Virus record (IMG/VR): IMGVR_UViG_2684622618_000004
Direction: 5' to 3' (one strand)
Source of the DNA: a virus
Lineage: Duplodnaviria; Heunggongvirae; Uroviricota; Caudoviricetes
Length of the DNA: 7,465 nucleotides
The translations under genes and the position numbers were made by a program. The notes beneath the pieces are model-generated. The model saw only the letters and a list, made by a program, of their open reading frames with translations. It did not search any database and had not been told where the DNA came from. Below are positions 1 to 7,457 of this stretch, one piece after another. Numbering within the stretch: position 1 is the first letter of the stretch; every line of letters starts with the position of its first letter.

Positions 1-45
1 TTATTATCATTTTGCGGGTCCTTTCCGGCGATCCGACAGGTTACG
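1..45 (+). other. cos: Phage right-end sequence abutting cosN; by position this should include the cosQ region
   Basis: Positions 1-45 (ttattatcattttgcgggtcctttccggcgatccgacaggttacg) closely match the lambda right terminus as I recall it (...cggatccgacaggttacg immediately before the cohesive end). Exact cosQ limits not determinable here. Confidence 0.6.
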
Positions 46-57
46 GGGCGGCGACCT
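46..57 (+). other. cosN: cosN cohesive-end sequence (12-nt 5' overhang, lambda type)
   Basis: gggcggcgacct at 46-57 is identical to the lambda left cohesive end, followed by cgcgggttttcgctatttatgaaaattttccgg, which matches the start of the lambda genome. Confidence 0.85.
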
Positions 58-94
58 CGCGGGTTTTCGCTATTTATGAAAATTTTCCGGGATC

Positions 95-106
95 CATGTC
101 CGGTTT
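95..106 (-). repeat. cosB R3-like small-terminase binding repeat (inverted copy of AAACCGGACATG)
   Basis: catgtccggttt at 95-106 is the reverse complement of the 12-mer found in direct orientation at 182-193 and, with one mismatch, at 152-163. It lies ~50 nt after the cohesive end, where lambda R3 sits. Confidence 0.55.
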
Positions 107-151
107 CTCTTCAAGTTAACTATATGAAAAATATAAAAACAGGTCTTCTGT

Positions 152-163
152 GAACCGGACATG
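152..163 (+). repeat. cosB R2-like repeat (gAACCGGACATG)
   Basis: 11/12 match to the 182-193 12-mer; an AT-rich stretch (111-140) separates it from the inverted copy, resembling the lambda R3-I1-R2 layout. Confidence 0.55.
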
Positions 164-181
164 AACAAAAAACAGACATGT

Positions 182-193
182 AAACCGGACATG
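182..193 (+). repeat. cosB R1-like repeat (AAACCGGACATG)
   Basis: Third copy of the motif, ~50 nt upstream of the small-terminase start, matching the position of lambda R1 relative to Nu1. Confidence 0.55.
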
Positions 194-240
194 ACCGGTT
201 TTGTTGTGATTGTGAGGTGAGAGTTTTTGCGAGGTGAGGA

Positions 241-808
241 GTGGCTACGCAGACTGAAGTTGCCAGGCATTTAAGTCTGACCGATCGCCAGCTTCGCAGA
301 TTGCAGAAATTGCCGGGTGCCCCGATATCGAATAAGCGAGGGCAACTGGATCTGGATGCCTGGCGCGATTTTTACATATCGTATCTGAGGAGAAGTAAAA
401 ACGATGTGCCTGATGGCGATAGCGAAGACGACTATGAGGAGAAATTGCTTATTGCCAGATGGGAACTGACAGCAGAACAGGCTGTTACACAGCAGTTAAA
501 AAANNNNNNNNNNNNNNNNNNNNNNNNNNNNNNNNNNNNNNNNNNNNNNNNNNTTAAAAAATGAGGTGTCAAAAGGAAAACTGATTGACACCGGGTTCTG
601 TATTTTTGCCCTCAGTAAGCTGGCAATGGCGTTATCCAGTACGCTTGATTCCATCCCTTTATCCATGCAGCGACAGTTTCCTGATTTAACACCGCGCCAT
701 CTTGACCATCTGAAAACCCTTATTGCTAAGGGGGCAAATCAGTGTGCGCGGGCAGGGGATAAATTACCGGATTTACTTGATGAATATATCAGAGCAACAA
801 CTGAATAA
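241..808 (+). CDS. nu1: Terminase small subunit (Nu1-like), split by an assembly gap
   Basis: GTG start at 241 with GAGG 6 nt upstream. N-terminal part (MATQTEVARHLSLTDRQLRRLQKL...) looks like a helix-turn-helix DNA-binding segment. C-terminal part (DTGFCIFALSKLAMALSSTLDSIPLSMQRQFPDLTPRHLDHLK...LPDLLDEYI) aligns with the lambda Nu1 C-terminal region (ETAFCTFVLSRIAGEIASILDGLPLSVQRRFPELENRHVDFLK...IPGLLSEYI). The frame shifts across the 504-553 N run; stop TAA at 806-808. Confidence 0.85.
504..553. other. Assembly gap (50 N) inside the small terminase gene
   Basis: Exactly 50 N. The 8-mer ttaaaaaa occurs immediately on both sides (496-503 and 554-561). Confidence 0.95.
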
Positions 809-2753
809 TATGATGAGCGCTGTCACAACTGCATTACAGCCCCTGATAAGGGCATTGCCGGTGACGCCAGTTGAATGGGCTGATCAAAATTATTATCTGC
901 CTAAAGAATCTTCATATGGTGAGGGCGAATGGAAAACGCTGCCATTCCAGATCGCCATCATGAACAGTATGGGGAATGATCAGATCCGCACTGTTAATCT
1001 GATTAAATCTGCCCGTGTTGGCTATACAAAGATGTTGCTGGGGGGGGGNNNNNNNNNNNNNNNNNNNNNNNNNNNNNNNNNNNNNNNNNNNNNNNNNNAT
1101 TTTATTGAGCATAAATCCCGAAACAGTCTGCTTTTTCAGCCCACGGATTCTGCCGCTGAAGATTTTATGAAGTCTCACGTGGAGGCGACGATTCGGAACG
1201 TGCCATGCCTGAAAGACCTTTCCCCATGGCTGGGTCGTAAACATCGTGACAATACTCTCACGCTGAAACGCTTTTCATCGGGCGTCGGTTTCTGGTGCCT
1301 GGGCGGCGCTGCCGCCAAAAACTACCGTGAAAAATCCGTTGACGTGGTCTGCTATGACGAACTTTCCTCGTTCGAGCCGGATGTCGAAAAAGAGGGCTCG
1401 CCAACCCTGCTGGGGGATAAGCGTATTGAGGGGTCGGTGTGGCCAAAATCCATTCGCGGCTCGACGCCTAAAATCAAAGGCACCTGCCAGATCGAAAAAG
1501 CCGCTAACGAGTCGGCGCATTTTATGCGTTTTTATGTGCCCTGCCCGCACTGTGGGGAGGCGCAGTATCTGAAATTTGGCGATGAGTCCACGCCTTTTGG
1601 GCTTAAATGGGAGAAGGACAGCCCTGAAAGTGTTTTCTACCTCTGTGAACATCATGGCTGCGTGATCCATCAGTCTGAACTGGACCAGAGCAACGGGCGG
1701 TGGATCTGTGAAAACACGGGCATGTGGACCCGTGACGGTCTGACGTTTTTCAGCGCCCGGGGTGATGAAATTCCGCCGCCGCGCTCCATCATGTTCCATA
1801 TCTGGACGGCGTACAGTCCGTTCACCACCTGGGTACAGATTGTCTATGACTGGCTGGATGCACTGAAAGATCCCAACGGCCTGAAAACCTTTGTGAACAC
1901 CACGCTGGGCGAGACCTGGGAAGAGGCCGTGGGCGAAAAACTCGATCACCAGGTACTGATGGATAAGGTGGTGCGTTACACGGCGGCGGTGCCTGCCCGG
2001 GTGGTTTATCTGACGGCGGGCATTGACTCGCAGCGAAACCGTTTTGAGATGTATGTCTGGGGATGGGCTCCGGGAGAGGAAGCCTTTCTGGTGGATAAAA
2101 TCATCATTATGGGGCGTCCTGATGAGGAAGAGACGCTGTTACGTGTGGATGCGGCGATCAACAAAAAATACCGCCATGCGGATGGCACCGAAATGACTAT
2201 TTCCCGTGTCTGCTGGGACACCGGGGGGATCGATGGTGAAATTGTTTATCAGAGATCAAAAAAACACGGTGTTTTCCGGGTGCTGCCGGTAAAAGGCGCA
2301 TCTGTCTATGGCAAGCCGGTGATCACCATGCCAAAAACCCGCAATCAGCGGGGCGTGTATCTGTGTGAAGTGGGAACGGACACCGCAAAAGAAATTCTCT
2401 ATGCCCGTATGAAAGCCGATCCCTCGCCTGCGGATGAAGCCACGTCGTATGCCATCCGTTTTCCTGATGATCCGGAGATTTTTTCGCAGACAGAGGCGCA
2501 GCAACTGGTGGCGGAAGAGCTGGTGGAGAAGTGGGAAAAAGGAAAGATGCGTCTGCTGTGGGATAACAAAAAGCGGCGTAACGAAGCGCTGGACTGCCTG
2601 GTGTATGCCTACGCGGCATTACGTGTGTCCGTGCAACGCTGGCAGCTTGATCTGGCTGTACTGGCAAAATCCCGGGAAGAAGAGACGACCCGGCCAACCC
2701 TGAAAGAACTGGCAGCGAAGCTGTCCGGAGGAGTGAATGGTTACAGTCGCTGA
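780..2753 (+). CDS. A: Terminase large subunit (gpA-like; packaging ATPase and cos endonuclease)
   Basis: ATG at 780 gives MNISEQQLNN..., matching the lambda gpA N-terminus MNISNSQVN. Long collinear similarity follows (VEWADQNYYLPKESSYGEGEWKTLPFQIAIMNSMG, IKSARVGYTKMLLG, GDKRIEGSVWPKSIRGSTPK, FMRFYVPCPHCGEAQYLKFGD, ICWDTGGID, KKRRNEALDCLVYA). It overlaps the Nu1-like stop by 29 nt and contains the 1049-1098 N run. Confidence 0.95.
   Translation: MNISEQQLNNMMSAVTTALQPLIRALPVTPVEWADQNYYLPKESSYGEGEWKTLPFQIAIMNSMGNDQIRTVNLIKSARVGYTKMLLGGXXXXXXXXXXXXXXXXXXFIEHKSRNSLLFQPTDSAAEDFMKSHVEATIRNVPCLKDLSPWLGRKHRDNTLTLKRFSSGVGFWCLGGAAAKNYREKSVDVVCYDELSSFEPDVEKEGSPTLLGDKRIEGSVWPKSIRGSTPKIKGTCQIEKAANESAHFMRFYVPCPHCGEAQYLKFGDESTPFGLKWEKDSPESVFYLCEHHGCVIHQSELDQSNGRWICENTGMWTRDGLTFFSARGDEIPPPRSIMFHIWTAYSPFTTWVQIVYDWLDALKDPNGLKTFVNTTLGETWEEAVGEKLDHQVLMDKVVRYTAAVPARVVYLTAGIDSQRNRFEMYVWGWAPGEEAFLVDKIIIMGRPDEEETLLRVDAAINKKYRHADGTEMTISRVCWDTGGIDGEIVYQRSKKHGVFRVLPVKGASVYGKPVITMPKTRNQRGVYLCEVGTDTAKEILYARMKADPSPADEATSYAIRFPDDPEIFSQTEAQQLVAEELVEKWEKGKMRLLWDNKKRRNEALDCLVYAYAALRVSVQRWQLDLAVLAKSREEETTRPTLKELAAKLSGGVNGYSR
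1049..1098. other. Assembly gap (50 N) inside the large terminase gene, preceded by a poly-G run
   Basis: Nine G at 1040-1048 run directly into 50 N. The lambda gpA alignment (MLLGVYAYFIEHK versus MLLGG...FIEHK) indicates only ~3-4 codons are truly missing. Confidence 0.95.
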
Positions 2754-6468: not shown

Positions 6469-6735
6469 ATGGGATTGTTTACGACCCGCCAGTTACTCGG
6501 TTATACCGAACAAAAAGTGAAATTTCGTGCGCTGTTTCTGGAGCTGTTTTTCCGCCGTACGGTGAATTTCCATACCGAAGAGGTGATGCTGGACAAAATT
6601 ACCGGAAAAACGCCGGTGGCGGCCTATGTCTCCCCGGTTGTTGAAGGAAAAGTGCTGCGTCATCGCGGTGGTGAAACCCGCGTGTTACGTCCGGGCTACG
6701 TCAAGCCGAAACACGAATTCCCCTGGAGCCGGTAA
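6469..6735 (+). pseudogene. E: Major capsid protein gene (gpE-like), 5' fragment only (88 codons)
   Basis: N-terminus MGLFTTRQLLGYTEQKVKFRALFLELFFR...[31 protein letters not shown] aligns with lambda gpE residues 1-~84 (MSMYTTAQLLAANEQKFKFDPLFLRLFFR...[31 protein letters not shown]). Similarity stops after KPKHE and the frame ends 5 codons later (TAA 6733-6735); lambda gpE is ~341 aa. Confidence 0.8.
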
Positions 6736-7457
6736 AAGGAGCCGGTACCACCCTGTGGGTTTATAACGGTCAGGGTGACGCCTATGCAAACCCGTTGTCA
6801 GACGATGACTGGCAGCGACTGGCTAAGGTGAAGGATCTGACGCCGGGCGAGATGACGGCAGAATCCTACGATGATAACTACCTGGATGATGAAGACGCGG
6901 ACTGGACCGCGACCGGGCAGGGGCAGAAATCTGCAGGTGATACCAGTTTTACGCTGGCCTGGAAACCGGGAGAGGAAGGCCAGAAAGGGCTTATAGGCTG
7001 GTTTGAAAGCGGCGATGTCCGGGCCTATAAAATCCGTTTTCCGAATGGCACGGTGGATGTGTTTCGTGGCTGGGTCAGCAGTATCGGTAAGGCCGTGACG
7101 GCGAAAGAAGTGATCACCCGCACGGTGAAAGTCACTAACGTGGGTAAACCTTCTGTAGCGGAAGAACGCAGCAAAATTACGCCGGTCAGTGCGATTAAGG
7201 TGACGCCGACATCCGGTACGGTGGCAAAAGGGAAAACAACCACCCTGACGGTTTCTTTTGAGCCGGAAAGTGCAACAGACAAGACGTTCAGAGCGGTTTC
7301 CGCCGATCCGTCGAAAGCCACCATTAGTGTGAAAGATATGACAATTACGGTAAACGGCGTGGCGACAGGTAAGGTGCAGATCCCTGTGGTGAGCGGAAAT
7401 GGTCAGTTCGCCGCAGTGGCTGAAGTCACCGTTACTGAAGCGGGCGCTGCAGGGTAA
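6729..7457 (+). pseudogene. V: Major tail protein gene (gpV-like) lacking its native 5' end; first in-frame ATG at 6795
   Basis: From 6729 this frame reads [78 protein letters not shown]...[42 protein letters not shown]...MTITVNGVA, near-collinear with lambda gpV from residue ~9 to the end. A TGA lies in-frame at 6672-6674 and no ATG or GTG lies between it and 6795. Stop TAA at 7455-7457. Confidence 0.8.

What the first reader, a model, noticed from the sequence alone, without database searches (positions are those of the whole stretch)
90..200. cosB repeat triad AAACCGGACATG unlike the lambda R sites, paired with a divergent small-terminase N-terminus
cosN and the first ~40 nt after it are essentially lambda-identical, but the repeats where lambda's R3, R2 and R1 would sit are a different motif. 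Copies lie at 95-106 (inverted), 152-163 and 182-193 (direct), with an AT-rich spacer at 111-140 where lambda has the IHF site I1. The Nu1-like N-terminus is also unlike lambda, while its C-terminal half is clearly lambda-like. This is the pattern expected for a packaging-specificity variant, as is known for phage 21 versus lambda, which share cohesive ends but differ in cosB/small-terminase recognition. I cannot confirm from memory that this is the 21 specificity itself.
Basis: partly seen in the sequence, partly recalled or inferred. Interest (0 to 1): 0.5.

Follow-up and report, generated by a model that had tools for sequence, protein, structure and literature searches.

The report
New lambda-type phage packaging-recognition cassette
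This is the DNA-packaging recognition site (cosB) of a very common E. coli prophage type: it has lambda's layout but its own repeat sequence, matched to its own DNA-binding domain on the small terminase subunit, so it is a further, apparently undescribed member of the known series of lambda-like packaging specificities.

The parts
16..22 (+). cosQ (GGGTCCT), packaging-termination element shared with lambda and 21
   Evidence: Sequence read. Conserved in the E. coli relatives. Present ~82-85 nt upstream of the TCCGGTT site in distant relatives.
46..57 (+). cosN cohesive-end sequence GGGCGGCGACCT (bp 1-12), identical to lambda
   Evidence: Alignment with lambda bp 1-45, 100% identical. Only 1 of 12 positions varies among 45 variants.
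75..87 (+). I2-type IHF-like match TATGAAAATTTTC (bp 30-42), shared with lambda, 21, phi80 and Gifsy-1
   Evidence: Consensus scan. Annotated as the I2 site in the phage 21 record.
95..106 (+). Copy 1, R3 equivalent: CATGTCCGGTTT at bp 50-61
   Evidence: Exact copy. Invariant in all 45 distinct variants. Same position as R3 of lambda, 21, phi80 and Gifsy-1 at bp 53-64. Identical in phage PhiR12_1 and in the satellite.
117..129 (-). Candidate IHF site I1 (TTTCATATAGTTA, 2 mismatches to WATCAANNNNTTR) inside the 83% A+T spacer
   Evidence: Lies at bp 72-84, the same strand and place as the annotated I1 of phage 21 (bp 74-86) and the lambda and phi80 matches. Weak as a consensus match.
152..163 (-). 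Copy 2, R2 equivalent: inverted CATGTCCGGTTC at bp 107-118, 57 bp from copy 1
   Evidence: 57 bp is also the R3-R2 start-to-start spacing of the annotated 21 boxes. 3 of 12 positions vary, rarely. Identical in PhiR12_1 and the satellite.
169..180 (-). Copy 3, degenerate (2 mismatches), probably not a functional site
   Evidence: 7 of 12 positions vary among close relatives, and it decays differently in PhiR12_1 and the satellite.
182..193 (-). Copy 4: exact inverted copy at bp 137-148, one of two R1 candidates
   Evidence: The core AACCGGACAT is conserved in the phages and the satellite.
190..201 (+). Copy 5: CATGACCGGTTT (1 mismatch) at bp 145-156, in the R3 orientation as R1 is in lambda and 21. 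Overlaps copy 4.
   Evidence: Conserved in the phages but absent from the satellite.
241..402 (+). terS codons 1-54: divergent winged helix-turn-helix DNA-binding domain (predicted recognition helix residues 15-22, DRQLRRLQ)
403..808 (+). Rest of terS: acidic linker, then a lambda-like oligomerisation and TerL-binding part. Includes an artificial N run at 504-553.
   Evidence: 46% identity to lambda Nu1 86-177. Pfam Phage_Nu1 67.9 bits over residues 49-150. N run mapped.
780..890 (+). First ~35 codons of terL, divergent from phage 21. Inferred TerS-docking segment and right-hand end of the swapped cassette.
   Evidence: Sliding identity to 21 is 14-57% from about bp 50 to bp 740 and 70-95% beyond about bp 800. 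TerL N-termini differ and the rest is nearly identical. terL from about window 1099 is 93.5% identical to 21 gene 2.

Best explanation
Window 91-201 is the cosB site of a lambda-like cos phage. It is a set of binding sites for the phage's own small terminase subunit (TerS), arranged as in lambda and 21: R3, an A+T-rich bend region with a probable IHF site, an inverted R2, then an R1 region. The repeat sequence is different (CATGTCCGGTT, family core TCCGGTT). The N-terminal ~54 residues of TerS form a winged helix-turn-helix of the lambda gpNu1 fold but from a different sequence family. A dimer of this domain is inferred to dock on R3 and R2 across the bend. That would anchor the large subunit (TerL), held by the lambda-like C-terminus of TerS, at the correct distance to nick the lambda-identical cosN. 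Specificity lies in a cassette that moves as one unit: cosB, terS and the first ~35 codons of terL. Here the cassette sits in an otherwise phage-21-like head operon. Shown: the anatomy, the spacing, the fold prediction, the co-occurrence of motif and domain, and the cassette boundaries. Inferred: binding of the domain to the motif, IHF use, and packaging incompatibility with lambda and 21.
Against: There is no binding or packaging experiment; everything is comparative. The IHF match has 2 mismatches in A+T-rich DNA and is unremarkable by itself. The R1 equivalent is ambiguous: the exact copy 4 has the R2 orientation, and copy 5 is missing from the satellite. The 26 loci are phylogenetically related, so the binomial P values overstate independence. 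Foldseek found no significant PDB match, with best E 0.2. The Arg20/G covariation rests on what is probably one lineage. This particular prophage copy is defective because the capsid gene is truncated, so the site may not be in use here.
Confidence: 0.85

Rival explanations
1. The site works like N15's simple cosB. Only copy 1 (R3) is needed for recognition and cosN nicking. Copies 2, 4 and 5 and the A+T-rich spacer are accessory or relics, and IHF plays no part.
For: Most members of this domain family have just one upstream site, or a tandem one, and no upstream inverted copy. Copy 1 is the only strictly invariant copy. In lambda, R3 is the critical site and R1 is accessory (PMC9026076, PMC4669245). 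The IHF match is weak.
Against: Copies 2 and 4 are identical in the window, PhiR12_1 and the satellite, while the DNA between them has diverged. The R3-R2 spacing of 57 bp equals that of phage 21 and recurs in L120. The I1-like match is in the same place and on the same strand as in 21, lambda and phi80. The simple-class relatives keep a second inverted copy inside terS, which suggests a second site is generally useful.
Confidence: 0.2
2. It is one of the already described specificities (phage 21, lambda/phi80, N15/Monarch or Gifsy-1) seen in a diverged copy.
For: The motif shares CATGTC with the 21 R box (CATGTCGGnCCT). The rest of the head operon is 93.5% identical to phage 21.
Against: R-box consensus sequences read from the records differ: lambda/phi80 CGTTTCCtTTCT, 21 C(A/G)TGTCGGnnCT, Gifsy-1 CAGATCC(G/T)TTC, N15 GAGGTTGTTGTT. 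The TerS N-terminus does not align with any of their proteins. tblastn with it finds none of these phages. The motif is 10 of 12 identical to the Aeromonas phage site CATTTCCGGTTC, which goes with a homologous domain.
Confidence: 0.03
3. The repeats are not packaging signals. They would be an operator for another regulator, or hairpins acting as a transcription terminator or attenuator ahead of terS.
For: A pattern scan finds terminator-like hairpins at 182-201 and 87-103, 2 against 0.3 expected.
Against: The hairpin is weak: 7 bp, z -1.8, and 10 of 200 shuffles fold as well. There is no Rfam match. The satellite lacks the 3' arm. Distant relatives have non-palindromic sites. The sites keep their distance to cosQ and cosN, not to the gene. 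The sites occur next to cosN in an element with no terS to regulate.
Confidence: 0.04
4. It is a chance cluster or a generic host repeat.
For: None found.
Against: 0 of 200 shuffles reach the observed count. 200 kb of E. coli chromosome has 0, 1 and 18 hits at 0, 1 and 2 mismatches against 0.02, 0.86 and 14.2 expected, with no clusters. In E. coli genomes the segment is found only next to terminase genes or at the satellite cos.
Confidence: 0.01

Closest known systems
Phage 21 cosB and gp1 (the classic lambda-versus-21 packaging specificity pair)
   Same: Same cosQ. Same order R3, I1, inverted R2, R1. 57-bp R3-R2 spacing. I1-like site at the same place. TerS gene starts right after cosB. TerL beyond residue ~40 and the gpW-like gene that follows are about 93% identical in DNA. 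The R box shares CATGTC.
   Different: The rest of the R box differs (CCGGTTT against GGnnCT) and the site starts 3 bp closer to cosN. The gp1 N-terminal domain shows no detectable sequence similarity. TerL residues 1-35 differ. The R1 region is a near-palindrome of two overlapping copies lying 10 bp closer to R2.
Lambda and phi80 cosB with gpNu1
   Same: bp 1-45 identical. Same architecture. The TerS C-terminal half is 46% identical. Same winged-HTH fold for the DNA-binding domain.
   Different: R box CGTTTCCtTTCT. The N-terminal domain belongs to another sequence family, and its aligned wing is 5 residues shorter.
N15 (simple cosB) and Monarch (complex cosB), one specificity with two architectures (PMC4669245)
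   Same: This domain family also comes in both forms. One form has a single R3-position site plus an inverted copy ~190-200 bp downstream inside terS (Aeromonas phiARM81ld, Pseudomonas, Enterobacter). The other has the complex R3-I1-R2-R1 form (this window, L120, L122).
   Different: R3 of N15 is GAGGTTGTTGTT, and its DNA-binding domain is unrelated in sequence.
cos-carrying phage satellites (SaPIbov5; E. coli PICI EcCICFT073 with two functional cos sites, PMC6092414)
   Same: A terminase-less island in E. coli strain 135 carries this cos, and a second one, for packaging by helper phages.
   Different: EcCICFT073 has no recognisable phage cosB and uses Rpp to redirect TerS (PMC6092414, PMC9026076). 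This island has authentic phage-type cosB sites of two different classes, and no gene is annotated next to either cos.

Membership tests
Lambda-like complex cosB (R3-I1-R2-R1) | Adjacent lambda-type cosQ and cosN with a 12-nt cohesive end | tested here: met
   GGGTCCT at 16-22. GGGCGGCGACCT at 46-57. bp 1-45 identical to lambda.
Lambda-like complex cosB (R3-I1-R2-R1) | R3 repeat about 50-65 bp from the cohesive end | tested here: met
   Copy 1 at bp 50-61, against 53-64 in lambda, phi80, 21 and Gifsy-1.
Lambda-like complex cosB (R3-I1-R2-R1) | R2 repeat inverted relative to R3, about 55-57 bp downstream | tested here: met
   Copy 2 at bp 107-118 on the opposite strand, 57 bp start to start.
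Lambda-like complex cosB (R3-I1-R2-R1) | R1 repeat in the R3 orientation, about 45 bp after R2 | tested here: inconclusive
   Copy 5 (1 mismatch, R3 orientation) lies 38 bp after R2 and is absent from the satellite. The exact copy 4 is in the R2 orientation.
Lambda-like complex cosB (R3-I1-R2-R1) | IHF site I1 between R3 and R2 | tested here: inconclusive
   2-mismatch consensus match at bp 72-84, positionally equivalent to the annotated I1 of 21, in an 83% A+T spacer.
Lambda-like complex cosB (R3-I1-R2-R1) | TerS binds the R repeats | not testable with these tools
   Supported indirectly by motif and domain co-occurrence.
Phage 21 packaging specificity | R boxes matching C(A/G)TGTCGGnnCT | tested here: not met
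   Window copies read CATGTCCGGTTT. Only CATGTC is shared.
Phage 21 packaging specificity | gp1-type N-terminal recognition domain | tested here: not met
   BLASTP aligns only residues 64-166 to gp1 83-179. The N-terminus does not align.
Lambda/phi80 packaging specificity | R boxes CGTTTCCtTTCT and a gpNu1-type N-terminal sequence | tested here: not met
N15/Monarch packaging specificity | R3 GAGGTTGTTGTT and a gp1(N15)-type N-terminus | tested here: not met
   N15 is absent from the tblastn hits.
Gifsy-1 packaging specificity | R boxes CAGATCC(G/T)TTC and a lambda/21-like N-terminus | tested here: not met
gpNu1-type small terminase (Pfam PF07471 Phage_Nu1) | Profile match above the curated cut-off | tested here: met
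   67.9 bits against a cut-off of 30, but only residues 49-150 match profile positions 62-163.
gpNu1-type small terminase (Pfam PF07471 Phage_Nu1) | N-terminal MerR-like winged helix-turn-helix DNA-binding domain | tested here: met

The most novel reading that the evidence does not exclude
This cosB is a portable, self-sufficient packaging address that phage satellites also exploit. An ~11 kb terminase-less island at tRNA-Pro in E. coli strain 135 ends in two convergent cos sites. One has this window's R sites. The other has N15/Monarch-type R sites. That would let a single satellite be packaged by helper phages of two mutually exclusive packaging specificities without an Rpp-type adaptor. More broadly, the family offers a natural test of how a TerS domain reads its site, for example Arg20 with the G of CATGTCCGG, and of repeated switching between simple and complex cosB architecture.
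Probability: 0.4. Interest if true: 0.6.

Novelty: new member of a known kind. Interest (0 to 1): 0.4.

Why it matters
Packaging specificity decides which DNA a cos phage's terminase will put into capsids. It therefore governs which co-resident prophages, hybrids and satellites can be mobilised together. The cosB/terS segment is present in about a fifth of complete E. coli genomes, with identical copies in O157:H7 strains, and often in several copies per genome. I found no paper in the searchable library that describes it. Adding it to the lambda, 21, N15 and Gifsy-1 series gives a further independent example of a TerS domain matched to its DNA site. It also gives a second case of one specificity using both simple and complex cosB forms, and a concrete prediction of who can package whom among EHEC prophages and satellites.

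Tried and rejected
- The two most relevant Feiss-laboratory papers on 21 and N15 R sites (PMC5006951, PMC4461450) are not held. I read the R boxes from the annotated GenBank records instead.
- The search for related loci on viral contigs returned 80 near-identical E. coli loci. They were useful only for within-class conservation.
- Both homologous-protein searches returned mainly truncated or frameshifted E. coli copies. The representative search gave the diversity needed.
- Sequence search of the PDB with the full TerS gave only spurious hits with E above 0.7.
- A literature search for the source of the PhiR12 phages found nothing.
- The terminator/attenuator and RNA-family readings were tested and set aside.
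- The idea that the motif is a hybrid of the 21 box and the family core was dropped. It differs from the Aeromonas site CATTTCCGGTTC at only two positions, so the CATGTC shared with 21 may be coincidence.

Full report
**What the window is.** The window opens at the right end of a lambda-like phage genome. It holds cosQ (GGGTCCT, 16-22) and the cohesive-end sequence GGGCGGCGACCT (46-57). These are followed by a small terminase gene (241-808), a large terminase gene (780-2753), and gpW-like, portal, protease/scaffold and decoration genes. Two 50-N runs (504-553 and 1049-1098) are artificial. The first is flanked by an 8-nt duplication, and the true terS is 510 nt (169 aa), as read from a 100% identical copy in an O157:H7 genome.

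**The observation.** There are two more copies. One is degenerate (169-180, two mismatches). The other, at 190-201 (one mismatch), has the same orientation as copy 1 and overlaps 182-193 through the shared CATG. There are six matches at up to two mismatches in the window, against 0.63 expected. None of 200 shuffles reaches six, and five of the six lie within 107 bases. [quoted passage not shown] Positions 111-140 are 83% A+T. TerS residues 73-164 are 46% identical to lambda Nu1, and the first ~70 residues match neither lambda nor 21.

**Comparison with the known specificity classes.** The literature held here describes complex cosB sites as R3-I1-R2-R1, with R2 inverted, in lambda, phi80, 21 and Gifsy-1. 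It describes a simple single-R3 cosB in N15, with Monarch as the complex counterpart of N15 (PMC4669245, PMC9026076). I read the real sequences from the records.
- Phage 21's annotated R boxes are AATCGTGTCGGTACTT, TTTCATGTCGGACCTT (inverted) and TTTTCATGTCGGGCCT.
- phi80's boxes are lambda-type.
- Gifsy-1 has CAGATCC(G/T)TTC three times.
- N15 has GAGGTTGTTGTT at bp 48-59.

In coordinates counted from the cohesive end, the 12-mer cores of lambda, phi80, 21 and Gifsy-1 all lie at 53-64(+), 108-120(-) and 153-166(+), with the TerS gene starting at bp 186-191. The window has copies at 50-61(+), 107-118(-), 137-148(-) and 145-156(+), with terS starting at bp 196. So the plan is the same and the sequence is not. 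The motif shares only CATGTC with the 21 box. A 2-mismatch IHF consensus match lies at bp 72-84 on the minus strand. That is the place and strand of the annotated I1 of 21 and of the equivalent lambda and phi80 matches. The I2-type match at bp 30-42 is common to all of them. The I1 match is weak as a consensus hit, and its support is positional.

**Does the motif travel with the domain?** tblastn with the domain finds only the PhiR12 phages (98.6%), Aeromonas phiARM81ld-type phages, E. coli phage 705R4 and two Pseudomonas phages. It finds none of lambda, 21, phi80, N15 or Gifsy-1. The distant relatives have a short N15-like cos region. In each, a single site lies just upstream of terS: CATTTCCGGTTCCGGTT, TATTTCCGGTTCCGGT or CGTTTCCGGTTCCGGTT. 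A protein-based scan of one genome per species, which assumes nothing about the DNA, gave 26 loci from Enterobacter, Aeromonas, Pseudomonas, Azospirillum, Roseomonas, Microbulbifer and others.
- 20 of the 26 have TCCGGT on the plus strand within -60..-10 of terS, against 0.012 expected per locus.
- The most widely shared 7-mer, found without any prior motif, is TTCCGGT: 20 of 26 loci, and 0 in control windows.
- The site lies 82-85 nt from a cosQ-like element in nearly all loci, even where its distance to the start codon changes. In the window the distance is 82.
- Four of the six loci without the upstream site (L109, L110, L111, L113) have lost the D-R-x-x-R-x-L pattern of the recognition helix.
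- 10 loci also have an inverted copy inside terS at +173 or +182, always as xAA-CCG-GAA. This parallels N15's rR2.

The loci are related, so the binomial P values (about 1e-33 and 1e-16) overstate independence.

Two relatives at 58-59% identity have complex cosB sites built from the same motif. L120 has GATGTCCGGTTT and an inverted CATGTCCGGTTC 57 bp away. L122 has CATTTCCGGTTCCGGTT, an A+T-rich spacer, an inverted CATTTCCGGTTT and then CACTTCCGGTTG in the R3 orientation. The G-variant of the site occurs only with Arg at helix position 20. That is suggestive, but it probably reflects one lineage.

**Within-class conservation and a natural cis-only test.** Among 45 distinct upstream variants from 77 viral-contig relatives:
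- copy 1 never varies;
- copies 2, 4 and 5 vary rarely;
- copy 3 and the spacers carry the variation.

An ~11 kb island at tRNA-Pro in E. coli strain 135 has no terminase gene. It encodes an integrase, a RepA-type helicase, SSB, PerC, ProQ/FinO, and capsid and decoration proteins of the lambda E and D families. It ends in a complete cos of this type. Copy 1, the spacer, copy 2 and copy 4 are retained, while copy 3 has decayed and copy 5 is absent. This is what one expects if the repeats are read in trans by a helper phage's TerS.

**Not a host repeat.** In 200 kb of ordinary E. coli chromosome the 12-mer has 0, 1 and 18 hits at 0, 1 and 2 mismatches, against 0.02, 0.86 and 14.2 expected. None of the hits are clustered.

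**Cassette boundaries.** All lambda-like phages in the collection except the PhiR12 group match only window 1-90. From about window 1099 onward, terL is 93.5% identical to gene 2 of phage 21. Sliding identity to 21 is high for bp 1-45, 14-57% (no consistent alignment) from about bp 50 to bp 740, and 70-95% beyond about bp 800. TerL residues 1-35 differ, and the rest is nearly identical. From established work on lambda and 21 hybrids (recalled, not read here), the N-terminus of TerL is the segment that binds the C-terminus of TerS. The swapped unit is therefore cosB + terS + the TerS-docking end of terL. L120 combines this R motif with an N15-type cohesive end, which shows that cosN and cosB also reassort.

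**Prevalence and status.** Window 85-500 is present in 1168 of 5426 complete E. coli genomes, with a median of two places per genome, and at 100% identity in O157:H7 strains. The PhiR12 phages are deposited as complete phage genomes, with E. coli K-12 MG1655 or E. coli C given as host. The copy in this window is defective: the capsid gene stops after ~84 residues and is joined to the tail-tube gene.

**Rivals.**
- A terminator or attenuator reading rests on weak hairpins (z -1.8) that are not conserved in the satellite or in distant relatives. There is no Rfam match.
- Identity with a known specificity is refuted at sequence level.
- The live alternative concerns mechanism: only R3 may be essential, as in N15. 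I rate that at about 0.2, given the strict conservation of copies 2 and 4 and the 21-like spacing.

**Verdict.** This is a further specificity class in the known lambda-like cos packaging series. It is not 21, lambda/phi80, N15/Monarch or Gifsy-1. I found no paper in the searchable library that describes it, though key subscription papers could not be read. Binding, IHF dependence and packaging exclusivity remain to be shown experimentally.

Noticed in passing
L116 3920-4545 / L117 7133-17886 (E. coli strain 135, NZ_CP080260.1 ~3775100-3785900): A terminase-less ~11 kb satellite-like island at tRNA-Pro ends in two convergent cos sites. One has this window's R sites. The other is inverted about 500 bp away and is identical to N15's R3 region over 14 nt (GGTTGTTGTTTAAT), with further GGTTGTTGT copies (Monarch-like complex cosB). 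The full arrangement is in 14 of 5426 genomes. Two cos sites in an E. coli PICI are known (EcCICFT073), but there no phage cosB was recognisable.
   Followed up: partly
L005 248-259; L006 ~783; L007 ~337; L090-L107 at +173 or +182 from the terS start: In the simple-cosB relatives an inverted copy of the site lies inside terS at a fixed offset, always encoded as xAA-CCG-GAA (13 of 13 copies: 10 of the 26 survey loci plus L005, L006 and L007), even in genomes of 55-61% GC. This suggests selection on the DNA and is the counterpart of N15's rR2.
   Followed up: partly
window 6469-6735 and 6795-7457: The lambda E-type capsid gene stops after ~84 residues and is joined to the tail-tube (gpV-type) gene from profile position 14. 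The genes from E through U are deleted, so this prophage copy is defective.
   Followed up: partly
window 504-553 and 1049-1098: Both 50-N runs are insertions, not masked sequence. The first is flanked by a duplicated TTAAAAAA and adds 58 nt to terS, which is why the ORF list splits terS into two ORFs.
   Followed up: yes
L001 3638-6416 (O157:H7 strain PV15-279): The 100% identical O157:H7 copy has frameshifted terL and portal genes according to its annotation. It is another defective member of this prophage class.
   Followed up: no
L120 795-940 (metagenome contig): A relative with 58% identity in the domain combines window-type R sites with the N15-type cohesive end GGGCGGCGTCCG. cosN type and cosB type therefore reassort independently.
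   Followed up: no
L002 (lambda) bp 40-48; window 85-91: Lambda's own left end contains TTCCGGTTT at bp 40-48, a perfect match to this family's core motif, 13 bp nearer cosN than the window's R3 core. The window reads TTCCGGG there. It may be coincidence, or a basis for asymmetric cross-packaging like that of N15 terminase on lambda DNA.
   Followed up: no
P0054: A 2465-residue protein matches the TerS DNA-binding domain in 19 separate stretches (28% identity). It appears to be a giant protein made of repeats of this winged-HTH unit.
   Followed up: no
window 210-221 and 227-238: A direct repeat, TTGTGAGGTGAG and TTGCGAGGTGAG, lies just upstream of the GTG start of terS. The second copy contains the likely ribosome-binding site. 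It is conserved among the E. coli relatives.
   Followed up: no
window 70-270, minus strand: A 66-codon ORF runs antisense across the whole cosB. Some phage records annotate a hypothetical protein here (for example PhiR12_1, 24792-24914). It is most likely a spurious call over a non-coding packaging site.
   Followed up: no
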